DNA of 58,933 bases from a virus (taxonomy: Duplodnaviria > Caudoviricetes), in IMG/VR virus record IMGVR_UViG_3300012284_000001, positions 1-58,933 of that record. One strand, 5' to 3'. Positions within the stretch are counted from its first letter, which is position 1; every line of letters begins with the position of its first letter. The notes under the pieces were generated by a model that was given only the letters and a program-made list of their open reading frames with translations, searched no databases and was not told where the DNA came from. The translations under genes were made by a program, and so were the position numbers. Shown here in pieces: positions 1 through 58,933 of the stretch.

Positions 1-8
1 ATGCTGAG

Positions 9-323
9 ATGGCTGACGAAGACGTCCACTTCTTTGCCACGTTCGCACTGGGCTGGGCCACGGCGCCGACCCGCGACGAGGCCATCGAGAAGCTGGTCGC
101 GGCCAACCGCTCTGACTTCAAGACCATGACCAAAAACATGCAGAAGGAAGGCAACCCCGGCGCGTACGTCTGGACCTGTCAGGTGAACGCACCGGCCGAC
201 GCTGAGTACAGCATCGAGTACTACCAGCCGCGTGGTGTCGAGATACAGGACGGCCGCGAGCACGCGGTCACCTACGTCACCGCCAAGGAGATCAAGCACT
301 GCGTGCACAGCACTCGCCAGTAA
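9..323 (+). CDS. Hypothetical early protein (104 aa)
   Basis: ORF with phage-like GC3-rich codons; TAA stop directly abuts hammerhead 1. Confidence 0.75.
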   Translation: MADEDVHFFATFALGWATAPTRDEAIEKLVAANRSDFKTMTKNMQKEGNPGAYVWTCQVNAPADAEYSIEYYQPRGVEIQDGREHAVTYVTAKEIKHCVHSTRQ

Positions 324-385
324 GGTCGAAACGTGGGCGCCATGCCCACGTCGTCGGATGATGTCCGGCCTGATGAGACCATCAG
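324..385 (+). ncRNA. Type II hammerhead ribozyme 1 (predicted cleavage after C352)
   Basis: Stem II GGTC(324-327)/GACC(377-380); GAAA 328-331; stem III CGTGGGC/GCCCACG; GUC triplet 350-352; stem I GTCGGA/TCCGGC with loop TGATG; core CTGATGA 370-376; loop I TGAT can pair with 3' tail ATCA. Confidence 0.92.
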
Positions 386-386
386 A

Positions 387-397
387 AACGCAAGGAG
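387..397 (+). promoter_or_regulatory. Conserved leader/RBS motif AACGCAAGG (other copies at 1589-1597, 2897-2905, 7678-7686)
   Basis: Identical 9-mer that includes the AAGG of the Shine-Dalgarno, 8-9 nt before ATGs at 405, 1606, 2915 and 7696. Confidence 0.65.
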
Positions 398-404
398 AAA
401 ATGA

Positions 405-1238
405 ATGAGACAAGTAACAGACACACCAGCCATCGCGGACCTGATCGCCAAGGGCGCCCACTTCTACGTGGGTCACTCTGGCGGCAAGGATTCGCAGGCA
501 ATGTACGCAGCTCTGGCTGCACGCATCCCGGCCGACCAGTTGCACGTCGTGCACGCTGATCTGGGCGACATCGAATGGGCAGGCGTCAAGGACCACATCC
601 GGGCCAACATCGACCACCCGCTGATGATCGCTGACGCCATCTTCAACGACGGCAGTGCCAAGGATTTTTTCGGCATGGTCCGCCAGCGTCGTGCCAAGCT
701 CGACCGCGATGGCAAATTCGATGCGAGCCCATTCCCGGCGCCGGGACTGACTCGCCAGTGCACCAGTGATCTCAAGACTGGGCCGATCTGGAAAGTGATC
801 AAGGCACACGCCAAACAGGTCGGCGCAGCCATCACTGTCAACTGCGTCGGCATCCGCTCTGAGGAGTCACCACGTCGCGCCAAGAAGGCGAAAGCTGGCA
901 CGCTGACCCGCAACAAGGTCCAGTCCTGTTCGACGCGTCAGGCGTACGACTGGTGGCCTATCGCGCACTGGCCGATAGCCGACGTCTGGGCCGAGATCGC
1001 TGACGCAGGTCAGCAGCCGCATCCTGCGTACGCTGACGGCAACGAACGCCTGTCCTGCATGTTCTGCATCATGGGCAGCGATAACGACCTGCAGCACGCA
1101 TACAGGGTCAACCCTGAGCTGGCCCACCGATACATCGCCCTCGAACGTGAGGTGCGCAGCACGATGTTTTACAGCGGCGGACGTCGCGTCTCACTGGCCG
1201 AGAAGCTGGGCATCGAAATTGAAATCAACGCAGCATAG
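405..1238 (+). CDS. PAPS reductase-family (adenine nucleotide alpha-hydrolase) protein, non-canonical
   Basis: PP-loop SGGKDS, RQCTSDLK, GIRSEESPRR, HPAY and RLSCMFC motifs; AGGAG RBS; lacks the C-terminal ECGLH of true CysH. Confidence 0.85.
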   Translation: MRQVTDTPAIADLIAKGAHFYVGHSGGKDSQAMYAALAARIPADQLHVVHADLGDIEWAGVKDHIRANIDHPLMIADAIFNDGSAKDFFGMVRQRRAKLDRDGKFDASPFPAPGLTRQCTSDLKTGPIWKVIKAHAKQVGAAITVNCVGIRSEESPRRAKKAKAGTLTRNKVQSCSTRQAYDWWPIAHWPIADVWAEIADAGQQPHPAYADGNERLSCMFCIMGSDNDLQHAYRVNPELAHRYIALEREVRSTMFYSGGRRVSLAEKLGIEIEINAA

Positions 1239-1249
1239 GAGCTACCAAC

Positions 1250-1513
1250 ATGACAACCGAATACAAATCAGCATCAACCAACATCCGTGGATATCACGTC
1301 GACTTCGAACTGGACGACGACAATGGCTATCCCGTCTCGCAGTGCTGGGTCACCCTGCGCTTCGCTAACCGCCCCGGCAAGGAGTGGTGCAGCTCGCTGG
1401 CCGTCATCGAGAATGAGGGCATCATCGAGTCATGCGACGGCGACGACTATCGCGACGTGCCTGAGCGCGTCGCCGCTGAGATCGCAGCGTGGGCCTACAA
1501 GCAAGGCTACTAA
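1250..1513 (+). CDS. Hypothetical small acidic protein (87 aa)
   Basis: AGGAG RBS; TAA stop abuts hammerhead 2. Confidence 0.75.
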   Translation: MTTEYKSASTNIRGYHVDFELDDDNGYPVSQCWVTLRFANRPGKEWCSSLAVIENEGIIESCDGDDYRDVPERVAAEIAAWAYKQGY

Positions 1514-1577
1514 GGTCGAAACGTGGGCGGACCATGCCCACGTCTGCAGCTAGTGGCTGCACTGATGAGACCATCAG
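1514..1577 (+). ncRNA. Type II hammerhead ribozyme 2 (predicted cleavage after C1544)
   Basis: GGTC-GAAA-CGTGGGC(ggaccat)GCCCACG-TC-TGCAGC(tagtg)GCTGCA-CTGATGA-GACC-ATCAG; all core nucleotides present; stem I differs from copy 1 but still pairs. Confidence 0.92.
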
Positions 1578-1605
1578 ATTTTTTAACTAACGCAAGGTGA
1601 ATGCA

Positions 1606-1902
1606 ATGAAGAAATTATCACAGAAAGCACTGAAGAAAACCGCCGATGACCTCGGCACTATCCGGGCCCAGTTGGCCATCCTCAAGGAGCAGGAAACTGC
1701 GCTCCGCGAGACCCTGATCGCGCATGGCGTTGACGTCATCGAGGGTGACCTGTTCCGGGCTAACGTGGTCGAGTCACACCGCAAGGTTATCGACTGGAAG
1801 AAAATCGCTGAGAAGCTGGAGCCCAGTCGTCAACTGGTCAAGGCTCACACTCGTGAGACTGATGTGATCAGCGTCCGTGTAACCAGCCGAGTAGGAGGCT
1901 AA
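1606..1902 (+). CDS. Hypothetical protein with N-terminal coiled coil
   Basis: ORF 1597..1902; ATG 1606 preferred because the GTG at 1597 lies inside the RBS motif. Confidence 0.75.
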   Translation: MKKLSQKALKKTADDLGTIRAQLAILKEQETALRETLIAHGVDVIEGDLFRANVVESHRKVIDWKKIAEKLEPSRQLVKAHTRETDVISVRVTSRVGG

Positions 1903-1904
1903 TC

Positions 1905-2420
1905 ATGAGTACACATTTTCAACTTCAAATCTGGAACGGCAGCGAGTACATCAACCGTACCACTGGCCAGCCTGACGAGCTGCGTGCGCACTATCGCGAC
2001 AGCGAATTCATACTCGGGTACCGCATCGTCGATACCCTCGCACGCGATCAGGAGGGCCGTCAGCTGCCGTTAAAACCTAAGCGCACCAACTGGGCCAGTC
2101 GCCAGTCGCGTCCGGTCACCGAGATCGACAGACAGGCTGAACTGGCCGCGGAGCATTTCCACAAGGTGCGCACCCGCGATCTGCAGGACCACATGAACCC
2201 GGCGATCAAGACCGACATCGACGTGTTCCCGGTCAAGCCATCGGGCCGTGGCCAGTCGGCTGACTTCCGTATGCAACTGGCAGGTCGACTGACCGGCAAT
2301 GCACCGCGGTCGTCAGCACTCTACCCCAGCGACAAGGCACAGCGGTTAGCACTCGAAGCGCAACTGGCTGACCATGGTTTTCGCTTTATTGAAATCACAA
2401 ACCCTGAGGATTACTCATGA
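1905..2420 (+). CDS. Hypothetical protein (171 aa)
   Basis: AGGAGG RBS; ATGA overlap with the next gene. Confidence 0.7.
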   Translation: MSTHFQLQIWNGSEYINRTTGQPDELRAHYRDSEFILGYRIVDTLARDQEGRQLPLKPKRTNWASRQSRPVTEIDRQAELAAEHFHKVRTRDLQDHMNPAIKTDIDVFPVKPSGRGQSADFRMQLAGRLTGNAPRSSALYPSDKAQRLALEAQLADHGFRFIEITNPEDYS

Positions 2421-2815
2421 AACATTACAACATCATCGCCTCGAATAACGAGGCATACACGCTGGCCGACGTCGCACTGTGCGTCTGGGAAGAAGTGCTG
2501 CGACGCGAACATGCGTCGCGCACCCTTCGCCAAGGCACCGACAATGACCCGGCCTACACTTTCTTTCAACAGCATGAGGGCGTGGCCCACGCGCGCAGCA
2601 ACGTCATCGAGACGGCGTACTGGTTTGAACTGGCCTACCAGTTCGCAGTCGACCGCTACGACTGGGACTATGGCTTCGACTGGGAATTCATTCCCCGGGC
2701 ACTCGATTACTTTATCGACGTCTGTGCCACCCCGGATGACATCACCGAGATCCGGGCACGCGAGGCTGCGCGCTACGCGTCGAATGACTACGACGTCGGC
2801 AACCAGCCTGAGTAG
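2417..2815 (+). CDS. Hypothetical acidic/aromatic protein (132 aa)
   Basis: GAGG RBS; the G of the TAG stop is the first base of hammerhead 3. Confidence 0.75.
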   Translation: MKHYNIIASNNEAYTLADVALCVWEEVLRREHASRTLRQGTDNDPAYTFFQQHEGVAHARSNVIETAYWFELAYQFAVDRYDWDYGFDWEFIPRALDYFIDVCATPDDITEIRAREAARYASNDYDVGNQPE

Positions 2816-2886
2816 GTCGAAACGTGGACGGGACATCGACTCCCGTCTACGTCTGCAGCTAGTGGCTGCACTGATGAGACCATCAG
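2815..2886 (+). ncRNA. Type II hammerhead ribozyme 3 (predicted cleavage after C2853)
   Basis: GGTC-GAAA-CGTGGACGGGA(catcgac)TCCCGTCTACG-TC-TGCAGC(tagtg)GCTGCA-CTGATGA-GACC-ATCAG; the 11-bp stem III differs in sequence from copies 1 and 2 yet pairs fully (one G-U). Confidence 0.92.
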
Positions 2887-2914
2887 CCGATTAACTAACG
2901 CAAGGTAAATTGAT

Positions 2915-3385
2915 ATGAACAACGACAATGCAATAACGCTGCTCAACGAAAACGGCGTCAAGAAAGAATACGGCCGGATCCCCGATCTCTGGCACGTCGC
3001 TCAGTATCTCAAGGGCAACATCGATGCCGATGATCTCGGCCTGTCCAGTATCGCTGATCAGATCCTCGAAGTCTGGCACATGGCACACGACCTCAAGGCA
3101 GTCATCGAGGGCCAGGGTGATGCGCGAGTGTTAGAACCTGGGGCTGCTGAACCTGAATTCATGATAGGTGACGTCGACCGGGTCAAGAATAACCTCAGCT
3201 ACGTGATCGAACTGGCACGCCACCGTGCCGACATGTGGCAGGCGCTGGCCGATGGCAAAAACATGTTCGAACAACTGGACGCCTTCTACGAGTGCGACAA
3301 GCACGAGGCCGAGGTCATGGCCCACGACACCAACGTCGCAGTTGAACGGGTTCAGGAATGGTTCGCCAAGGCGGTGAAGTCATGA
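2915..3385 (+). CDS. Hypothetical protein (156 aa)
   Basis: Follows the AACGCAAGG leader; ATGA-coupled to the next gene. Confidence 0.75.
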   Translation: MNNDNAITLLNENGVKKEYGRIPDLWHVAQYLKGNIDADDLGLSSIADQILEVWHMAHDLKAVIEGQGDARVLEPGAAEPEFMIGDVDRVKNNLSYVIELARHRADMWQALADGKNMFEQLDAFYECDKHEAEVMAHDTNVAVERVQEWFAKAVKS

Positions 3386-3675
3386 AGACCAACGTATCCA
3401 TCAAACTGGATGACCAGCAGCGCAAGCTGCTGGCCGACGTCATCGACAACAAGCAGACCGCTCGACTGGCGACACGCGCTGACATCGTCAAGCTGTGCCA
3501 GTTGCACATCGCTGGCCTGCTGGAGCAGAACGTCCAACTGGATCCCCCGGAGAAAGCTGAAGCGGTCCGCTCTGGTCTCTACGACATCGACCCGGCAGAC
3601 GAGAAGCTGCTACACGGTAAAGAGCCCGGTTACATCCGCGGCTGGAATCTGGTGAAGCGGTCTGGTTTGACATGA
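3382..3675 (+). CDS. Hypothetical protein, possibly ribbon-helix-helix-like N-terminus
   Basis: ATG 3382 overlaps the previous TGA; N-terminus MKTNVSIKLDDQQRKLL. Confidence 0.65.
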   Translation: MKTNVSIKLDDQQRKLLADVIDNKQTARLATRADIVKLCQLHIAGLLEQNVQLDPPEKAEAVRSGLYDIDPADEKLLHGKEPGYIRGWNLVKRSGLT

Positions 3676-3703
3676 CGTAGACGGGACATCGACTGCCCAA
3701 TTG

Positions 3704-3730
3704 AACCCCGGCCGCAAGCCGGGGTTTTTT
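3704..3730 (+). terminator. Rho-independent terminator ending the early operon
   Basis: AACCCCGGC-cgcaa-GCCGGGGTT; the stem ends in a T6 run (3725-3730). Confidence 0.85.
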
Positions 3731-3736
3731 ATGCCC

Positions 3737-3898
3737 GGGGGGATATGGGGGGTATTTTTGCAAACCCACTCATAGACCTATATGAATAATGTTTTTTTTT
3801 TTTTTTACTATTCATTCTCATACGCGTTGGTCGTAAAAAATACACCCCATATCCCCCAAAAAAGGATTTTTAAACACCGATATCCCCCATATCCCCCC
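3737..3898. repeat. Nested inverted/direct repeats around a T15 tract; putative replication origin
   Basis: GGGGGGATATGGGGGGTATTTTT (3737-3759) vs AAAAAATACACCCCATATCCCCC (3835-3857); ATGAATA/TATTCAT flank T15 (3792-3806); more ATATCCCCC copies at 3880-3898; next to the primase 3' end. Confidence 0.6.
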
Positions 3899-3942
3899 AC
3901 GCCGCTGAAGCCGGGACAATCAAACACCTTCCTCAAAGCTCA

Positions 3943-6573
3943 TCAAAGCTCTTCATGGGGGGAATCCAGATGCGGCGGCGGTCGCAATTCCCACCCAGTC
4001 CAGACATCGATACCGTGTGATTTTACGGACGCACCCAGCAGCATATCGAGGCGATCATACAGCTCACGTTGTCGCAGCATGAAACCTTTATGCGGCACCC
4101 AGTCAGTGTAAGCACGCCAGACATCGGACCGCTTCACACGCTTACCCGGCATCAGCATCTCGTCCACAAACTGCATCACCTGATTCGACTGGCTCGACCA
4201 CTTCTCGTGGCTGATAACAGCATCGACCGGCACGTCCCAGTTATTCCGGGTACGCAGTCGCTGCAGGCCAGCAATAAACCGATTCAATATCCCGGGCAGT
4301 TCAAGCAGCATCGCATCACGGCGTGCATCGGACCGCTCGGGTCCGTCGATGCGATGTAGAAACTCGAACACCAGTGCACGCTCGTGGAATGCGTCGCTGA
4401 CATCTTTAGTAACCGGCCAGTGATTGGCACAGACCAGCGGCAGCGCGCGTGACTGGAAGGTGATCGCGTCCTTAAATTTGACGTTGGCCGTGATGCGCTT
4501 CTCCTCGGATATCTTCTTGATGAATCCGTCCGGCAGGCTGGCCGACTTGTCGAAGTCATCGTCAGCCAGTAGCAGAGCATTGACCAGATTGTAATCAGCG
4601 AAGTCACTGCCGACACCGAACTTGCCCAGCTCCATGGCGACACAGCTCTTGCCCAGCAGCTCCTTGAATACGTTGAGCAGGGTTGACTTGCCGGTGTTGG
4701 TCGCACCGTGGAACAGCACCCAGACCTTGAGCCACTTCGACATCGAGATGATGTAACCACCCAGCTCTTCGAGATGGCGAATCATATCCTCCGGATCCCC
4801 GGCCTCTGCGAACACCATACGCATGAAGCGATCCCACTCCGGGCAGTCAGCGCCAGGGTCGTAATCGGTGTTCACCTGCATGGTATAGAAGTGTTCAGGG
4901 TTGTGGTCTTCGACAGTCATATTGCCGTGATAATCGAAGTGCAGCTCGCAGTTCAGACAGTTGACGACTGGCTGGGTGATCCGACGCAACAGCAACAACG
5001 GATCCGAGTTACCGGATAACTCTGATGCACGCGCCAGTCGTGCGGTCAACATCGAATTCAAGGAACCCACCAGTGTAGTAGTCTTGTTCTCACCGATAGC
5101 CGCGACCAGTTGAGCCGCATCATCAGGCCGGGTCTCACGCAGCCTGATGATACTCTCCTGCAGCAGGCCACGGATCGGCTCGTCACCAATCATGCGCCAC
5201 ACGCCTGTCTCGTAAAGCCAGAACGCGCGACCGATACGCTTGAGATGTGCACCGCCTGCAAAATGCTCTTCGAGCATCTCGTCCACCAGCTCGCGCTCGA
5301 TGTCGGTGACCTCTTCACCATCACGGCCAGCGAGCTGGGTGCGTATTCGCTTGACCGAATCACGCAGCGTCTGGATCCCGGGCCTGACCGGATAGCGTGC
5401 CTGCAATGCCTTGAGCAGCATGTCGGTCTCGTGCGGTTCGTACTGGGCGATACGCGGCAGCAGGCTATCGAGGTGCGCGCTCTCGTGTCCGGCCGGTAGC
5501 ACCATCTCCTCGATCTCGGCCCGGAACTGGTCGACCGTTGGCGCCGATGGTTTACTCTTCTCGGCGGCTTCGTCGATGTCGTCCAGCTCGTCATCCATAT
5601 CACGGTTCGCCAGTACCTCGGGATCCGCGGCCACGAGCTTGTACATCTCTTTCATGGAGGCATCGTGATCGTCGTCACCGAACAACAGCATCCGCACCAG
5701 ATCGAACGCGTTGCAATTCTTCTGGCTGATCGCTGCCGGGTTCTCGTGGTGCGAGTACAGGAACTGGTCATCGTAGACCACGGCACCGGCAGGCCCGGTG
5801 GCGCCGAGCGGTCGGTACCGGTTATCGAATTCCGTGGTCTCGAATACCTCGGGCAGGTAGGTGGCAATGGCTGCGTGGATATCGTAGGTGCGATTGAATG
5901 CACCGATCAGGCCCGGGCGTGTCAGTGGATCCGCTGCCTCGGCAACAGGTGGACGGATCTCACCGACGCGAGAGGATCGCGGCCAGTCGAAGTGATCCTG
6001 ATCCGGCGCCCAGTCATCCGGGTCAATCCAGTCACCATGCAGGTGTACAGCCTCGGTTGCTGCGTCACTGCTGCAGCTGGGCCAGTACATGATGCGGCTG
6101 ACCTCGAACGTGGTGTCGTCGAAGTAATCCATACCGAACCAGTCCGCGAGGTTACGCGCCACCGGTTCGTACTCAAATGGACTGACGTCGCGCGCGAGCG
6201 GGAAGACCACCCGCAACCTGGGCCGGTCCGGGCTGTGCTTGTGCGTCGAGTGCACCACGCACTCATAGCCTGCGTAGGCTTCGAGCAGTGCGTTGATATC
6301 GTCGCAGTGGTCGACGTCGAGCGTAACGATGGATCGACAGATCAGCTCATTCTTTCGGCGTGCTTTTCCTTCAAAGGGACCGCCCACGAGGTAACCGACA
6401 TCCTTGATGTCGGCCTGCTGGTCGGCAGGCATCGCCATGTACTCGGCGTAGGTCTCAGGTGTGACTACGAAATCGAGCAGCTTTTCACATAGCTTCGCCC
6501 AGCTTATCTTGCCGGATCTAACTACTGGATTTAATCGCGACGCACCCTTCGAAATTCGAAGGCTGCGATTCAT
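3943..6573 (-). CDS. Primase-helicase (N-terminal primase domain + D5/P4-type SF3 helicase)
   Basis: TLDVD and HSTHKH...RLRVVFPL primase motifs; Walker A GATNTGKST; LLLADDD Walker B; VCANH motif C. Confidence 0.9.
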   Translation of the reverse strand: MNRSLRISKGASRLNPVVRSGKISWAKLCEKLLDFVVTPETYAEYMAMPADQQADIKDVGYLVGGPFEGKARRKNELICRSIVTLDVDHCDDINALLEAYAGYECVVHSTHKHSPDRPRLRVVFPLARDVSPFEYEPVARNLADWFGMDYFDDTTFEVSRIMYWPSCSSDAATEAVHLHGDWIDPDDWAPDQDHFDWPRSSRVGEIRPPVAEAADPLTRPGLIGAFNRTYDIHAAIATYLPEVFETTEFDNRYRPLGATGPAGAVVYDDQFLYSHHENPAAISQKNCNAFDLVRMLLFGDDDHDASMKEMYKLVAADPEVLANRDMDDELDDIDEAAEKSKPSAPTVDQFRAEIEEMVLPAGHESAHLDSLLPRIAQYEPHETDMLLKALQARYPVRPGIQTLRDSVKRIRTQLAGRDGEEVTDIERELVDEMLEEHFAGGAHLKRIGRAFWLYETGVWRMIGDEPIRGLLQESIIRLRETRPDDAAQLVAAIGENKTTTLVGSLNSMLTARLARASELSGNSDPLLLLRRITQPVVNCLNCELHFDYHGNMTVEDHNPEHFYTMQVNTDYDPGADCPEWDRFMRMVFAEAGDPEDMIRHLEELGGYIISMSKWLKVWVLFHGATNTGKSTLLNVFKELLGKSCVAMELGKFGVGSDFADYNLVNALLLADDDFDKSASLPDGFIKKISEEKRITANVKFKDAITFQSRALPLVCANHWPVTKDVSDAFHERALVFEFLHRIDGPERSDARRDAMLLELPGILNRFIAGLQRLRTRNNWDVPVDAVISHEKWSSQSNQVMQFVDEMLMPGKRVKRSDVWRAYTDWVPHKGFMLRQRELYDRLDMLLGASVKSHGIDVWTGWELRPPPHLDSPHEEL

Positions 6574-7309: not shown

Positions 7310-7584
7310 GCCGCCTTCCGAGACCATTCTCTCAAATACGGACACAGGTCGAGTACATGACAATCCTCGCAGTACTCATCGAGAAGCAACGCCCACTGGG
7401 GTGGCACCCGGTAATCTACTCGCCATCCATGGATGCCGATATGGCTTACACTTTTATAGTGAGCCATCTCGGTCAGAATTCTTGCCAGCTTCCTGTAACT
7501 ACCCGCTTTATCTTTAGCAGCCAGCAGGGACCGTGTGAATGCGGCTTTTTCTTTTGCATTCAAGGGTTTAAAGGGTTTTCGCAT
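7306..7584 (-). CDS. Cro-like HTH transcriptional regulator
   Basis: GSYRKLARIL...SHIGIHGW...RVP...DLCP resembles Cro/YdaS-like proteins; first gene of the leftward unit. Confidence 0.55.
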   Translation of the reverse strand: MRKPFKPLNAKEKAAFTRSLLAAKDKAGSYRKLARILTEMAHYKSVSHIGIHGWRVDYRVPPQWALLLDEYCEDCHVLDLCPYLREWSRKAA

Positions 7585-7609
7585 TGTGTGACCGATATCT
7601 ATAAAAATG

Positions 7610-7649
7610 TCAGGAAATACTACCTGATCCTGTAAAAAAGAGCTATAAT
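7610..7649 (+). promoter_or_regulatory. Divergent promoter region: TATAAT -10 (7644-7649) and TCAGG-N8-CCTGA palindrome (7610-7627)
   Basis: AT-rich gap between divergent units; perfect -10; the palindrome covers the expected -35 position. Confidence 0.45.
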
Positions 7650-7695
7650 TAAATCTCCACTAACGCAATAATGCTTAAACGCAAGGAGATACACA

Positions 7696-8517
7696 ATGAG
7701 TTTACTTTACTCTCACGCAGGTAACCCCCATCTGTCACTGGCCGAACTGGCCCAGGTTCCGACGCCCCCGGCCATGGGTCCGCGTCACAACCCTTACCCG
7801 TTTCACACCTACGTCGAAGATGTCGAAGAGTCACTCGACCGCGTCGGCTACGAGGTACTGGAGCGTGATCTTGAGGTCACCCACGACCAACAGCGTTTCT
7901 TCGGCGCACTGGCCATCGCACCCCGCGGTGAGCGCGTCGGTGAGATCGTCGAGAATACCGACGAAGATATGCCGATAGCCGAGTGGCGCAAGAACGACGC
8001 AGGCTATGAGCTGCTGATCGGATTGCGCGGTGCGCACGACCAGTCGATCCAGCGCGAGATGGTGTTGGGCGATAACATTTTTGTCTGCAGCAACCTCGCC
8101 TTCTCTGGATCCATCGGTCACATTGCTACCAAGCAGACCACGTTCATCCACCGTCGTCTGCCCGGGCTGATCTCTTCGGCCGTGGCCAAGATTCCGGAAC
8201 TGGCTGAGCAGCGTGCGAACATGTTCGACGCGTTCAAGAACTACGAGTTCAAGAACCCGCGCGCAGCTGATGCGGCCATGGTCGAGATCTTTCGTCAGGG
8301 CGGTCTGTCTGCTGCACAACTGGGCAAGGCGATCCACGAGCTGGATAAGCCCACCTACGAAGAGCATCTCGAATGGGGCCGTAGCGCATGGTTAGTCCGC
8401 AACTGTGTCACGCAGGCTCTGAAGCCCGGTGGCGCCAACGTCAACCATAACCTGATTGCTGATCGGACGACCATCGCGGATCGTTTTCTCAGTAACCTTG
8501 TTGGAATTGCTGCTTAG
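7696..8517 (+). CDS. DUF932-like phage protein
   Basis: LAQVPTP...HNPYP N-terminus, RFFG, IGLRGAHDQS and FVCSNLAF motifs; AAGGAG RBS. Confidence 0.65.
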   Translation: MSLLYSHAGNPHLSLAELAQVPTPPAMGPRHNPYPFHTYVEDVEESLDRVGYEVLERDLEVTHDQQRFFGALAIAPRGERVGEIVENTDEDMPIAEWRKNDAGYELLIGLRGAHDQSIQREMVLGDNIFVCSNLAFSGSIGHIATKQTTFIHRRLPGLISSAVAKIPELAEQRANMFDAFKNYEFKNPRAADAAMVEIFRQGGLSAAQLGKAIHELDKPTYEEHLEWGRSAWLVRNCVTQALKPGGANVNHNLIADRTTIADRFLSNLVGIAA

Positions 8518-24737: not shown

Positions 24738-24991
24738 TAGTGTCTCCTCTTACTTATGGCCATTATGATACTGATGATCTCGTCATCTTCTCGTGTCAGC
24801 AATGCGTCCAGTGACGTATCGAGCGTTCTCCTTCTTCTACCCTTCGAACTGTCGCCGCCATCTCGCCGAATGATGACATCGACTATACCTACATAACCCT
24901 TTGTTCCGATTGCGATATCATCCGGGCAGTGCTGCACTCCGTCAAAACAGACATATCCTTTTGTCGCAATTGAAAGCGGATCGAGTGTCAT
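24737..24991 (-). CDS. Hypothetical virion-region protein
   Basis: Coupled on both sides; internal IATKGYV/IGTKGYV repeat. Confidence 0.65.
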   Translation of the reverse strand: MTLDPLSIATKGYVCFDGVQHCPDDIAIGTKGYVGIVDVIIRRDGGDSSKGRRRRTLDTSLDALLTREDDEIISIIMAISKRRH

Positions 24992-36953: not shown

Positions 36954-38695
36954 TAATCACCAGCCTTGTTGTGTACCAAATAGCCATCTGCGTAATAAGT
37001 GTTATCGCCGCTTAGTTTGAAATTGTATAACGGTGTTTTTGGATGATCCGCAGTCATGCTGATTGTCTTGAGTATTTCAGTGCCTTCCCAAGTCTGCAAT
37101 TCATCACCAATTTCCAATTTCATCACTTCAAGATGCGGGTTTTCTTCACGCGTCATCGCCGGGTCAAAAGATTTCCAACCGGTGCTTGTCGCAAATGGGT
37201 GCTCTGCCGTAACAAAGAACTTGCCGCCGTTAATGCTGTATAACAAACGATCACCTAATCTCGGGTGATCAAAAGCCAATACTTCATTTTCAACACCACC
37301 GCGACCAATCAGTTTGTCACCAATACGCACATCTTCGATACGTTTATCTTGTCCATCCATTTGTACCAAAGTACCCGCAACGAAACAGGATCTTTCTTCT
37401 CGAATCCATCGCCACTGCTGAAGACTGCTATCCCATCTCCAATTACCTCGATTGAAGCCCCACAGCCTAATGTCTCTACCAGAGGGATCTTTTGTTGGTT
37501 TGACGTCTTTGTTAAACCGCCAGTTAGGATCTGTCGTAGTCGCTCCCCCTCCTGGCGCCGGTTCCGTTCGAATGGGCGGATACTTAATCGGTGTACCCGG
37601 GCCAGCACCCGGTACATAGGTTGACAAGTCCGTGTTATCCATATTCTGGATAAAACTTAACGCGCCTTTCAGTTGCGCTGACTGGGTCTCTACATACTGT
37701 GCCACTCGGCTGGGCGAGATATCCTTGTTAGCCATGATATTCGCCATCCCGCTCAGGTAGGAGTCGAAGACCCGGGCCGCGGATTCATTCTTCGAGATCA
37801 GCGTCTGGTACTGTCCCTGAATCTGTGCCAGATCGATAGCCTGGGATCCGGCCAGGAACTGCTTGTTCAGCTCCTGAATCTGGGCGGACATCTGCGCGAC
37901 CATGTTGTTACGCTCAGTCGCGTATTGCGAGCTGGCCCGGAATTGCTGGTCTGCATTCGTCAGTGCCGCGCGTGTCTGCAGATCCGCGAACTGTTGCTGA
38001 GCCGCATTGTAGGCTTGAGCGTTACCCTGGCTCACCGCGGTCTGCATCTGGGCGTTTAGCATGGCAGCTTCCTGAAGCTGCTCATCATTGAACTTCGAGA
38101 CGTCCGTACCGAGCTGCGCATTCAATGAGCTGACCGCGGTCTCGCGATCTGCCGCCTCGCTGGCCAGTCTAACCGCGGTCGCTGCATCCTGTTGTGCCAG
38201 TGGCATTGCGCGGTCGACCATGGCGCCCATTGCCTGCTGTGCGGCAATCGTCGAGCCTAACAGGCCACGTCGAGCGGCTGTCTGCAGTCCCTGTTGTCTG
38301 GCTCTCGCCATAAGAGGGCTGTCCTGTGCCGTGATATCGGCCATTTGCTGCGCGGCTGACATTTCAGTCGGCCCACCGACAACCTGACCGGCAACAGCCT
38401 GCTGAGCCGTTGCCCCGGGTGCTGCGACCGCGGTCGCTGCAGTTGCATCCTGCACACCGGCCATCGTTGCCTGCACTTCATCGGGTGCCACGGCCGCGGT
38501 GGTCGGCGGTGCAGCGGTTGGATACAGGCTGCTTAACGCGGGACTGGTTGGCTCACCGCGTATGATGGGCTCATCACCAATTGCCGGGGTGATCTGTGGC
38601 GCAGGTGCACTCGAAACTGTTCCCGGCGCTCCCGGTGTTTCCGGGGTAGTCGAGGGGTATGCTCCGTATTGTTGTGCGTCTGTTAAAGCTGGCAT
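36953..38695 (-). CDS. Ejection-module protein with a C-terminal Hint (intein-like) domain
   Basis: CFVAGTLV (block A, Cys at 37385-37387), VTAEHPF (block B), YNF...NTYYADGYLVHN (blocks F/G, Asn at 36968-36970). Confidence 0.8.
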   Translation of the reverse strand: MPALTDAQQYGAYPSTTPETPGAPGTVSSAPAPQITPAIGDEPIIRGEPTSPALSSLYPTAAPPTTAAVAPDEVQATMAGVQDATAATAVAAPGATAQQAVAGQVVGGPTEMSAAQQMADITAQDSPLMARARQQGLQTAARRGLLGSTIAAQQAMGAMVDRAMPLAQQDAATAVRLASEAADRETAVSSLNAQLGTDVSKFNDEQLQEAAMLNAQMQTAVSQGNAQAYNAAQQQFADLQTRAALTNADQQFRASSQYATERNNMVAQMSAQIQELNKQFLAGSQAIDLAQIQGQYQTLISKNESAARVFDSYLSGMANIMANKDISPSRVAQYVETQSAQLKGALSFIQNMDNTDLSTYVPGAGPGTPIKYPPIRTEPAPGGGATTTDPNWRFNKDVKPTKDPSGRDIRLWGFNRGNWRWDSSLQQWRWIREERSCFVAGTLVQMDGQDKRIEDVRIGDKLIGRGGVENEVLAFDHPRLGDRLLYSINGGKFFVTAEHPFATSTGWKSFDPAMTREENPHLEVMKLEIGDELQTWEGTEILKTISMTADHPKTPLYNFKLSGDNTYYADGYLVHNKAGD

Positions 38696-58539: not shown

Positions 58540-58933
58540 CCAATAACTCCTTGATTTAAAAGAGAAAACCCGGCATGGGCATACCGGGAATCTCGCATCA
58601 ACTCACCAAGGCCAAACGGCCTACCAGTTCTCTGGAGAATAGAGTGTTCTGGATGGCTCTCTTGAATACCACGGAATCGAGGTGGAAGTCAAACCTGGGC
58701 GGCTGAACAAGGGTCCAGCTTTGCGCCCAGCTTTGCGCCCAGACCTGGGTCCGAAGGACCGGGTTTCTGGAAATTCAAAAATAAAAAATTTGAGCAGAAA
58801 CGTATGGTACCTAGCGGGACCGCTAGCTGGCGCTCGGCGACTTTGGATTTCGGAATGTATGAGACTCATTCCCCCGGACCCGGGCCCGATCCCCCAGACC
58901 CCGCGGGGCTGGGGCGCCCGGGCACCGGGCCAC

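What the first reader, a model, noticed from the sequence alone, without database searches (positions are those of the whole stretch)
321..2886. Early operon punctuated by three type II hammerhead ribozymes: a candidate self-processing mRNA system
Seen: three intergenic copies of GGTC-GAAA-[stem III]-TC-[stem I]-CTGATGA-GACC-ATCAG at 324-385, 1514-1577 and 2815-2886. The core is invariant, while stems I and III change sequence and length yet keep pairing (stem I GTCGGA/TCCGGC vs TGCAGC/GCTGCA; stem III 7 vs 11 bp), which argues for selection on RNA structure. Established: CUGAUGA + GAAA + NUH in this order with stem II open is a type II hammerhead; cleavage leaves a 2',3'-cyclic phosphate and a 5'-OH; hammerheads are known from bacteria and phages, but their roles there are mostly unknown. 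Inference: the transcript cuts itself after 352, 1544 and 2853 into gene cassettes (353-1544: two genes; 1545-2853: three genes; 2854-3730: two genes). This would be a protein-free analogue of RNase III processing of T7 early mRNA. The 5'-OH, hairpin-capped ends should resist 5'-monophosphate-stimulated RNase E decay.
Basis: partly seen in the sequence, partly recalled or inferred. Interest (0 to 1): 0.92.

Follow-up and report, generated by a model that had tools for sequence, protein, structure and literature searches.

The report
Three hammerhead ribozymes between phage genes
Three complete self-cutting RNA motifs (type II hammerhead ribozymes) sit between gene blocks of one operon in an uncultured phage, most likely cutting the long message into shorter ones; the motifs look real, but this layout was described in phages in 2011.

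Summary
Three same-strand copies lie at 323-385, 1513-1577 and 2814-2886. Each has a complete hammerhead core, a GUC cleavage triplet and type II topology. Each starts at the upstream stop codon and is followed by a shared Shine-Dalgarno leader.

My covariance model finds only these three in the 58.9-kb phage record (86-97 bits; next hit 14). Rfam Hammerhead_II matches all three full-length, but below its gathering score (22.6-25.5 against 37 bits).

The same design is abundant in viral metagenome contigs. An exact-motif scan returned at least 120 stretches, and 169 model hits came from 100 sources. In the alignment of those hits, 98.7% of helix cells pair (shuffles 67.3%), with heavy compensatory change. 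In 113 of 157 copies an open frame ends within 10 nt upstream, against 5% at random positions.

A syntenic relative has four hammerheads in the same operon. One is at the same site but has different stems.

This scan has also noted the arrangement repeatedly on other DNA. Cleavage, the 'early' label and the stability effects are untested here.

One extra feature: the conserved AUCAG tail can mask the catalytic core in a competing hairpin, and it marks a subclass of 69 viral stretches. Verdict: a new member of a known kind.

The parts
9..323 (+). Gene g1 (104 aa, no family). Its TAA stop at 321-323 supplies the conserved A that precedes ribozyme 1.
   Evidence: ORF list; 66% aa match to the syntenic relative L127; no PHROG or Pfam hit.
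323..385 (+). Hammerhead 1 (type II). Stem II 324-327/377-380; GAAA 328-331; stem III 331-338/344-351; C17 = 352 (predicted cut after 352); stem I 353-358(9)/363(4)-369; CUGAUGA 370-376; AUCAG tail 381-385.
   Evidence: Sequence; RF02276 25.5 bits; model R1 88.4 bits; fold.
387..397 (+). Shared leader AACGCAAGG plus Shine-Dalgarno, 7 nt before ATG 405.
   Evidence: There are 4 exact copies in the window against 0.43 expected; the fourth is at 7678-7686.
405..1513 (+). Cassette 1: PAPS-reductase-like gene (405-1238) and an 87-aa ORF (1250-1513).
   Evidence: phrog_424 3e-38 and PF01507 32.3 bits; ORFs.
1513..1577 (+). Hammerhead 2 (type II); predicted cut after C1544. Stem III is as in copy 1 and stem I as in copy 3.
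   Evidence: 24.7 bits; 97.1 bits. The core-masking hairpin plus the U run at 1562-1587 is flagged terminator-like.
1589..1599 (+). Shared leader and Shine-Dalgarno before ATG 1606.
1606..2815 (+). Cassette 2: three small genes (1606-1902, 1905-2420, 2417-2815), closely packed or overlapping.
   Evidence: The first two have homologues in L127. None has a family except a weak phrog_6244 hit.
2814..2886 (+). Hammerhead 3 (type II); predicted cut after C2853. Stem III is 12 bp. The TAG stop at 2813-2815 overlaps the ribozyme's first bases.
   Evidence: 22.6 bits; 85.8 bits.
2897..2907 (+). Shared leader and Shine-Dalgarno before ATG 2915.
2915..3675 (+). Cassette 3: two genes (2915-3385; 3382-3675, with an ATGA overlap).
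   Evidence: the first has a partial homologue in L127.
3675..3694 (+). Relic of a fourth ribozyme: only the 5' arm and loop of a stem III like that of copy 3, right after the last stop codon. It has no GAAA, stem I or CUGAUGA.
   Evidence: Read. R1 with filters off finds no fourth copy.
3706..3730 (+). Intrinsic-terminator-like hairpin (7 G+C-rich pairs) plus a run of 6 T, which ends the operon.
   Evidence: Read. Sub-threshold Rfam alignments to sRNA terminator ends cover the same bases. The simple scan did not list it.

Best explanation
The three elements are genuine type II hammerhead ribozymes, transcribed as part of a rightward multi-gene phage mRNA. Each folds as soon as its stem II closes and cuts the RNA 3' of C17, after 352, 1544 and 2853.

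Because the topology is type II, only the 4-bp stem II holds the two products together, so they separate easily. The upstream product keeps its stop codon and ends in the stem III hairpin with a 2',3'-cyclic phosphate. The downstream product begins, with no unpaired 5' base, in the stem I hairpin with a 5'-OH. About 30 nt further on comes the same AACGCAAGG/Shine-Dalgarno leader.

The result is three cassettes of 2, 3 and 2 genes, each with a standard structured 5' end and a standard ribosome-binding leader. Their lifetimes and translation no longer depend on the neighbouring cassette.

Shown here: the motif, its conservation and covariation, its placement, and its presence in a syntenic relative. 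Inferred: cleavage in vivo, a single transcript, and the effects on stability and translation.
For: Core and topology were read directly. The Rfam Hammerhead_II model aligns over its full length. The tail-less minimum-energy fold is the canonical junction in 3 of 3 copies. Within the window 57 of 57 cells pair and 5 pairs change on both sides. Model R1 with filters off finds only these three copies in 58,933 b (85.8-97.1 bits; next hit 14 bits).

Class-level support:
- All 157 of 157 copies (154 plus the window's 3) parse as hammerheads with at least 9 contiguous stem I + III pairs. Only 0.3% of inner-sequence shuffles do so.
- U16.1 is present in 157 of 157. H17 is C in 140, A in 16 and U in 1.
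- R1 on the window plus 99 loci gave 169 hits at E <= 1e-3.
- On the best 150 hits (145 distinct), 98.7% of cells pair against 67.3% in shuffles (0 of 500 reach it). There are 768 double-change cells against 233, and slid controls give 29-43%.

Placement: 113 of 157 copies have an open frame of at least 60 codons ending -1 to 10 nt before the ribozyme, against 5% at random same-strand positions. The median distance to the next start is 21 nt.

Relative L127 (63% aa identity in the PAPS-reductase-like gene) has four hammerheads in the syntenic operon. One is directly upstream of the orthologue of the gene at 1606-1902. Its core is identical, its stems differ, and it has the same leader.

Literature: Perreault 2011 showed cleavage of comparable tandem hammerhead arrangements in vitro, and of the A. 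tumefaciens triple arrangement in vivo in E. coli. Type II hammerheads next to phage-like genes in D. vulgaris cleave in vivo (PMC8782182, passages read).
Against: There is no direct evidence of cleavage or expression.

Rfam scores are below the gathering cut-off, and the whole-window E-value scan at E <= 1 lists nothing.

With the AUCAG tail included, the predicted minimum-energy fold is not the hammerhead. It is a 6-bp hairpin that masks C3-G8 and breaks stem II. That hairpin is 1.6-1.8 kcal/mol more stable than the enforced hammerhead fold.

The loop I to 3'-tail pseudoknot that Perreault found critical for fast cutting in many type II members is not evident in this class. Observed complementarity equals the permuted value for the non-AUCAG copies, and there is only a small excess for the AUCAG copies.

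Predicted RBS accessibility does not change on cleavage: 0.77/0.63/0.49 unpaired before against 0.66/0.60/0.46 after. A translational benefit is therefore not visible in silico.

The 5' end of the operon is missing because the contig starts inside it. 'Early' and 'one transcript' are assumptions.
Confidence: 0.8

Rival explanations
1. These are gated or slowed ribozymes. The conserved AUCAG tail, together with the last C of stem II, pairs with CUGAUG of the core. Each copy then toggles between an inactive hairpin and the active junction.

Cutting would be delayed, or conditional (for example on ribosome traffic at the abutting stop codon). Alternatively, the hairpin forms after cutting, expels the upstream product and blocks re-ligation. 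This refines the main reading and does not exclude it.
For: The minimum-energy fold with the tail is the masking hairpin in 3 of 3 copies, and the 3' product folds as stem I plus that hairpin directly next to it. The energy difference is only 1.6-1.8 kcal/mol, so both states should be populated.

In the unselected sample of 143 distinct copies, 27 have a tail that pairs with all five of C3-U7, against 0.64 expected from composition. The distribution is bimodal: 96 copies with 1 pair and 27 with 5. All 4 tails that are one change from AUCAG (three ATCGG, one GTCAG) keep pairing through G.U.

Across the whole viral collection, the exact subclass gave 69 stretches, 84 copies and 67 distinct sequences. 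Those carry 41 different stem I strands and 42 different stem III strands, so the tail is held constant while the stems turn over.
Against: The core is invariant, so no covariation can prove this pairing. The tail is also associated with a loop I type: U...U pentaloops in 14 of 27 AUCAG-like copies against 10 of 116 others (Fisher p = 1.6e-6, not corrected for relatedness). This fits a tertiary-contact role or shared descent equally well. Nearest-neighbour energies ignore the tertiary stabilisation of the hammerhead. There are no kinetic data.
Confidence: 0.35
2. The cassettes between two ribozymes are converted into circular or spliced RNAs. The 5'-OH and 2',3'-cyclic-phosphate ends would be joined by ribozyme reversal or by a host RtcB-type ligase.
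For: The end chemistry is right for it (established hammerhead chemistry). Perreault 2011 names the possibility.
Against: Perreault 2011 looked for spliced or circular products of such arrays and detected none. In type II topology the two ends of one cassette belong to different ribozymes, which here share only a 4-bp stem II. Nothing in the sequence brings the ends together. I did not test this.
Confidence: 0.05
3. The repeats are chiefly module boundaries for recombination, that is, gene-cassette shuffling between phages. Their ribozyme activity would be secondary or lost.
For: Copy 2 is a mosaic: it has the stem III of copy 1 and the stem I of copy 3. A truncated fourth copy lies at 3675-3694. 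Gene order differs between the window and L127, and the ribozymes flank different genes: there is none between g1 and the PAPS-reductase-like gene in L127, and one directly after it.
Against: Recombination sites would not need an intact 13-nt catalytic core, U16.1 in 157 of 157 copies and a non-G H17 (the parse does not allow G at this position), or compensatory changes in all three helices. Nor would they need to be on the coding strand at stop codons. Shuffling is better seen as a by-product of having repeats.
Confidence: 0.1
4. This is a chance or non-ribozyme structured repeat (a REP-like element or a terminator) that merely resembles a hammerhead.
For: Rfam scores are below the gathering threshold. 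The hairpin of copy 2 followed by a U run is scored terminator-like.
Against: Every defining core position is present in 3 of 3 copies. Full-length model alignment, covariation and shuffle controls argue against chance. Only copy 2 has a U run.
Confidence: 0.03

Closest known systems
Type II hammerhead ribozymes of bacteria and phages (Perreault et al. 2011, PMC3088659; Rfam RF02276, clan CL00010)
   Same: The same catalytic core, GUC cleavage triplet and G10.1-C11.1 and A15.1-U16.1 pairs. Stems I and III are capped and stem II is open. A conserved A lies on each side of stem II.
   Different: Stem II has 4 bp, where the paper says as few as 2 are common. Loop I is short (3-5 nt). There is no clear loop I to tail pseudoknot. 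The tail is AUCAG, complementary to the core. The copies score 22.6-25.5 bits against Rfam's 37. In 13 loci of this class, no ribozyme passed Rfam's gathering score, while 2 of the 4 pseudoknot-type copies of relative L127 did at 38.7 bits.
Clustered hammerheads flanking single genes or short gene blocks in prophages, e.g. the A. tumefaciens triple arrangement around ardA (Perreault et al. 2011)
   Same: Several same-strand hammerheads within about 2.5 kb between small phage genes of varying identity. The proposed role, processing a long phage transcript into gene- or operon-length mRNAs, is the same.
   Different: This one is in an uncultured, apparently non-integrated tailed-phage contig. 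Each ribozyme starts exactly at the stop codon and is followed by an identical leader. Nothing is tested experimentally here, whereas those arrays cleaved in vitro and one cleaved in E. coli.
Type II hammerheads of Desulfovibrio vulgaris near phage-like genes, shown active in vivo by cyPhyRNA-seq (PMC8782182)
   Same: Type II topology, phage-like gene neighbourhood, and two copies close together. The fragment sizes are similar: a 5' part of 29-32 nt and a 3' part of 39 nt in that paper, and a 29-39 nt 5' part here.
   Different: A different host and different sequence. I did not compare the sequences; their table is in a supplement that I could not open.
RNase III processing of the phage T7 early polycistronic mRNA (recalled textbook knowledge, no call)
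   Same: It works like it: cuts between genes of a phage operon leave hairpin-ended, individually stable messages.
   Different: T7 uses a host protein enzyme and double-stranded processing signals. Here the RNA cuts itself, and the ends are 5'-OH and 2',3'-cyclic phosphate. This is an analogy, not family membership.
RiboJ-type synthetic ribozyme insulators (recalled, no call)
   Same: A self-cleaving hammerhead placed directly upstream of an RBS gives every gene the same 5' end, followed by a hairpin and then the RBS.
   Different: RiboJ is engineered and is not type II. Here RNAfold predicts no change in RBS accessibility on cleavage.

Membership tests
Hammerhead ribozyme (any type) | Conserved core C3-U4-G5-A6-N7-G8-A9 and G12-A13-A14 | tested here: met
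   CUGAUGA and GAAA are present and identical in 3 of 3 copies and aligned to the Rfam core columns.
Hammerhead ribozyme (any type) | Cleavage triplet N-U-H, with A15.1-U16.1 and G10.1-C11.1 closing pairs | tested here: met
   GUC in 3 of 3 copies, with A15.1-U16.1 and G10.1-C11.1 present. In the wider class U16.1 is present in 157 of 157, and H17 is C in 140, A in 16 and U in 1.
Hammerhead ribozyme (any type) | Three helices around the core, supported by compensatory change | tested here: met
   Window: 57 of 57 cells paired and 5 double-change pairs. Class: 98.7% paired against 67.3% in shuffles, 15 of 19 pairs with double changes, slid controls 29-43%. Caveat: that alignment was fitted to the model's structure.
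Hammerhead type II (RF02276) | Stems I and III closed by loops, stem II open (circular permutation type II) | tested here: met
   The order of elements was read; the tail-less minimum-energy folds are.
Hammerhead type II (RF02276) | Score at or above Rfam's gathering threshold (37 bits) | tested here: not met
   25.5, 24.7 and 22.6 bits; 0 hits at gathering threshold. The alignment shows the loss comes from insertions in the longer stem II, the shorter stem I loop and the different tail, not from the core.
Hammerhead type II (RF02276) | Pseudoknot of 4 or more bp between loop I and the 3' tail (in a majority of members, not all, per Perreault 2011) | tested here: inconclusive
   Copy 1 could form 5 bp (loop UGAUG with CAUCA). 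Copies 2 and 3 form only 4 of 5 with an internal mismatch (read). At class level there is no excess over permuted loop/tail pairs for non-AUCAG copies, and a small excess for AUCAG copies (3.15 against 2.77; 1 of 200 permutations).
Hammerhead ribozyme (any type) | Mg2+-dependent self-cleavage giving 2',3'-cyclic phosphate and 5'-OH ends | not testable with these tools
   No RNA run was listed as holding the stretch. A bench assay is needed.
Clustered phage hammerhead arrays (Perreault 2011) | Two or more hammerheads in close proximity, on the gene strand, flanking single genes or short gene blocks of a phage | tested here: met
   Three copies within 2.6 kb bound blocks of 2 and 3 genes and precede one of 2. 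The phage context includes primase/helicase, DNA polymerase, portal and large terminase. The record is an IMG/VR virus contig.

The most novel reading that the evidence does not exclude
The AUCAG tail is a built-in conformational device that defines a distinct, mostly viral subclass of type II hammerheads. By pairing with CUGAUG of the core, it would either hold the ribozyme off until something tips the balance (for example a ribosome leaving the abutting stop codon), or snap shut after cutting. In the second case it would eject the upstream product, prevent re-ligation and give the downstream mRNA a double-hairpin 5' cap.

Counts for the exact subclass: 69 stretches in IMG/VR and 2 in 185,579 representative prokaryote genomes. 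I found no description of such a core-masking tail in bacterial or phage hammerheads in the two full-text searches aimed at it, but supplements and subscription journals were not searchable.
Probability: 0.3. Interest if true: 0.5.

Novelty: new member of a known kind. Interest (0 to 1): 0.25.

Why it matters
What bacterial and phage hammerheads are for is still called largely elusive (review PMC6765202, passages read). This operon adds a clean example of the stop-ribozyme-leader layout. It does not open that question in a new way: the host is unknown and nothing is expressed in the available data.

Three by-products are useful:
- This abundant design (4-bp stem II, short loop I) falls below Rfam's gathering score. 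Standard annotation therefore misses it, here and in 13 of 13 other loci checked.
- In a sample of 157 copies the ribozymes start at the upstream stop codon far more often than chance allows.
- A subclass carries a tail that can mask the catalytic core. This is a cheap hypothesis to test at the bench and of possible use for designing insulators.

Tried and rejected
- Rfam at gathering threshold on the whole window gave 0 hits. Whole-window E-value mode at E <= 1 also gave 0 hits, so no other ribozyme class (twister, pistol, hatchet, HDV-like) or further hammerhead type is detectable.
- Search for more copies in the window: R1 with filters off and the RF02276 genome search found only the three. 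A 10.4-bit hit at 38072-38121 and a 14-bit hit at 24771-24850 are noise.
- Public phage records: blastn of 1-4000 found only short PAPS-reductase matches in 3 records, so there is no annotated close relative.
- Link to the PAPS-reductase-like gene: only 2 of 65 viral loci encoding a relative (L127, L152) have hammerhead hits near it. The ribozymes are not tied to that gene.
- Loop I to tail pseudoknot as the reason for the tail: not supported at class level.
- Cleavage un-masking the RBS: not supported. Predicted accessibility is unchanged.
- Expression: no RNA holder was listed by the look-up of sequencing runs. The three metatranscriptome runs it offered hold next to none of the words. I did not lay reads on them.
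- Overlap of the ribozymes with mechanical ORFs of at least 60 aa on either strand was uninformative in this G+C-rich DNA, and I did not use it.
- Gene function: 7 of the 8 operon proteins have no convincing PHROG or Pfam family. I ran no further search on them.
- Supplements were closed. Perreault's Dataset S1 and figures S4/S5 may already contain this 4-bp stem II / AUCAG design. So may the D. vulgaris sequence table. I could not check either.
- Rows dropped or not searched:
  - Searches used 143 of the 157 copies. Exact duplicates and copies with fewer than 12 nt downstream were removed.
  - searched the window plus L007-L105, i.e. 99 of the 120 loci.
  - Alignment A3 keeps the best 150 of its 169 hits.
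  - One search examined 14 loci only.

Full report
What is there. The window is one IMG/VR virus record of 58,933 b, linear and estimated 93% complete. It belongs to a tailed dsDNA phage with primase/helicase, DNA polymerase, helicase, a DarB-like giant protein, portal and large terminase.

Its first 3.7 kb is a rightward block of eight closely packed genes: 9-323, 405-1238, 1250-1513, 1606-1902, 1905-2420, 2417-2815, 2915-3385 and 3382-3675. A G+C-rich hairpin with a T run at 3706-3730 closes it. Only the second gene has a family, PAPS-reductase-like (phrog_424 3e-38; PF01507).

The contig starts inside or just before the first gene. The syntenic relative L127 has further same-strand ORFs upstream. 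The operon is therefore truncated here, and neither its promoter nor its timing can be read; 'early' is a guess. No + strand sigma-70-like site was found in 1-3730. That is weak support for a single transcript.

The three elements. They lie at 323-385, 1513-1577 and 2814-2886. Each copy reads, in this order:
- A
- GGUC
- GAAA
- a hairpin that starts with A and ends with U
- C
- a second hairpin
- CUGAUGA
- GACC
- AUCAG

In hammerhead numbering this gives C3-A9, G12-A14, the A15.1-U16.1 and G10.1-C11.1 pairs, and a GUC triplet with C17 at 352, 1544 and 2853.

The 16-nt core-plus-tail word occurs three times exactly. Allowing 3 mismatches there are 6 matches, against 0.53 expected, and none of 100 shuffles reached 6. 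All 57 helix cells of the three copies pair, and 5 pairs differ on both sides, 4 of them in stem I. Copy 2 shares stem III with copy 1 and stem I with copy 3, so the copies are mosaics of each other. Without the last five bases, RNAfold returns exactly the three-way hammerhead junction for each copy.

Database recognition. Rfam at gathering threshold reports nothing in the window. In E-value mode RF02276 (Hammerhead_II) aligns to all three over its full length, at 25.5, 24.7 and 22.6 bits against a cut-off of 37. The alignments show that the core matches. The losses come from the 4-bp stem II (the model has 2 bp), the short loop I and the different tail.

A model built from the three copies (R1) and run without filters finds only these three in the record (85.8-97.1 bits; next hit 14 bits). 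No other Rfam family appears at E <= 1.

Relatives. Many of these hold several copies. All 154 copies in them, plus the window's three, parse as hammerheads:
- U16.1 is present in 157 of 157.
- H17 is C in 140, A in 16 and U in 1.
- Stem I has 6-7 bp and stem III has 3-14 bp.
- Each has at least 9 contiguous stem pairs, which only 0.3% of shuffled inner sequences reach.

R1 found 169 hits in the window plus 99 of these loci, with up to nine in one 3-kb stretch. On the best 150 hits (145 distinct rows):
- 98.7% of cells pair, against 67.3% in shuffles (0 of 500 reach it).
- 768 cells change on both sides, against 233.
- Slid controls pair at 29-43%.

That alignment is fitted to the model, which favours the structure, but the margin is very large.

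Placement is also a property of the class. In 113 of 157 copies an open frame of at least 60 codons ends between -1 and 10 nt before the ribozyme, against 5% for random same-strand positions. The base before stem II is A in 156 of 157 copies, often the last base of the stop codon. The median gap to the next start codon is 21 nt. In the window the gaps are 0, 0 and -1 nt to the stop codon, and 24, 33 and 33 nt to the ATG.

The closest relative. L127 comes from a 59.7-kb contig whose PAPS-reductase-like protein is 63% identical. It is syntenic for five of the eight genes and carries four hammerheads in the operon. One sits directly upstream of the orthologue of the gene at 1606-1902, the same site as copy 2. 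It has the same core and the same AACGCAAGGAG leader, but different stems I, II and III.

The L127 copies are of the classical pseudoknot design, with a long loop I complementary to the tail. Two of them just pass Rfam's threshold at 38.7 bits. In contrast, no ribozyme of the 4-bp stem II class passed it in the 13 other loci checked.

Other positions differ. L127 has no ribozyme between g1 and the PAPS-reductase-like gene and has one right after it. It also matches the published remark that the flanked genes are not constant.

How it probably works. The RNA cuts itself 3' of C17. In type II topology only stem II holds the halves together, and both new ends are hairpins. The upstream message keeps its stop codon and ends in stem III with a cyclic phosphate. 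The downstream message starts flush with stem I with a 5'-OH, followed by the shared leader and Shine-Dalgarno.

The same leader also precedes the first gene of the next rightward operon at 7678-7686, which has no ribozyme (sequence). This suggests that the ribozyme gives internal cassettes the same kind of start as a primary transcript. These consequences are inference. RNAfold predicts no change in RBS accessibility on cutting. The stability argument depends on host RNases, and the host is unknown.

The tail. With AUCAG included, the predicted minimum-energy fold in all three copies replaces stem II and the free core by a 6-bp hairpin, CUGAUG with CAUCAG. That hairpin is favoured by 1.6-1.8 kcal/mol over the enforced hammerhead. 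The 3' product folds as stem I plus this hairpin, leaving the leader open.

Evidence that the tail is held by selection:
- Among 143 distinct copies from the unselected scan, 27 have a tail pairing with all of C3-U7, against 0.64 expected, and there are almost no intermediates.
- The four tails one change away all keep pairing through G.U.
- The exact subclass numbers 69 stretches in IMG/VR (84 copies, 67 distinct, with 41 stem I and 42 stem III variants). It numbers only 2 in the representative prokaryote genomes.

The tail is therefore under selection, but its partner cannot be proved because the core never varies. The tail also correlates with a loop I type. It may be an off-switch, a post-cleavage trap or a tertiary-contact element.

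What is known. Perreault et al. 2011 (passages read) reported:
- the first natural type II hammerheads, common in bacteria;
- multiple hammerheads flanking individual genes or short gene blocks in prophages;
- efficient cleavage of three such arrays in vitro and of the A. tumefaciens triple in E. coli;
- no detectable circular or spliced products.

The 2019 review still calls the bacterial roles largely elusive. The 2021 cyPhyRNA-seq paper shows type II hammerheads near phage-like genes cutting in vivo. This scan has also noted the arrangement repeatedly on other DNA: the word look-up counted 324 notes that hold the search words, and five of the eight it listed (four phage arrays and one bacterial operon) carry follow-up reports that file hammerhead arrays between genes under the arrangement of Perreault 2011.

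Verdict. The elements are type II hammerheads by every sequence and structure criterion except Rfam's score cut-off. The proposed mechanism is the standard, still unproven reading for such arrays. This is a new member of a known kind. Its only modestly new aspect is the core-masking tail subclass, together with the fact that this common design escapes Rfam annotation.

Noticed in passing
window 3675-3694: A truncated fourth ribozyme sits right after the last stop codon (TGA 3673-3675). It has only the 5' arm and loop of a stem III, matching copy 3 in 19 of 20 bases. Its arm is a perfect complement of copy 3's 3' arm, where copy 3 itself has a G.U pair. This suggests a past deletion or recombination at a ribozyme copy.
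   Followed up: partly
window 7678-7686 (context 7580-7700): The leader that follows each ribozyme (AACGCAAGG plus AG) also precedes the first gene of the next rightward operon (ATG 7696). It lies downstream of an A+T-rich stretch with a TATAAT word, and there is no ribozyme there.
   Followed up: partly
window 1562-1587: In copy 2 only, the core-masking hairpin is followed by AUUUUUU, and the simple scan flags it as terminator-like. It may be a weak attenuator between cassettes 1 and 2.
   Followed up: no
window 3737-3898: Between the convergent ends of the ribozyme operon and the primase/helicase gene lie G-rich/C-rich inverted repeats (19-nt arms, 95% complementary; a 37-nt pair at 78%) around a run of 16 T. 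Function unknown; candidates are a bidirectional terminator, a replication origin or a protein-binding site.
   Followed up: partly
window 58700-58745: A short tandem duplication of a 12-13 nt word lies in the non-coding right end of the contig.
   Followed up: no
L022 2150-5081; L085 9148-13227; L101 1239-3313: Other viral contigs carry much denser arrays of the same ribozyme design: 9-10 model hits within 3-4 kb in L022 and L085, and 6 in L101.
   Followed up: partly
L127 3337-3405: One of the relative's four hammerheads has an extra A between CUGAUGA and stem II and scores lower (22.8 bits). It may be a core-insertion variant.
   Followed up: no
L063 8246-8317; L030 6081-6146: Two viral loci holding AUCAG-type ribozymes give short hits above threshold to the Rfam tmRNA model (59.4 and 53.6 bits, about 70 nt). 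These are probably tRNA-like elements.
   Followed up: no
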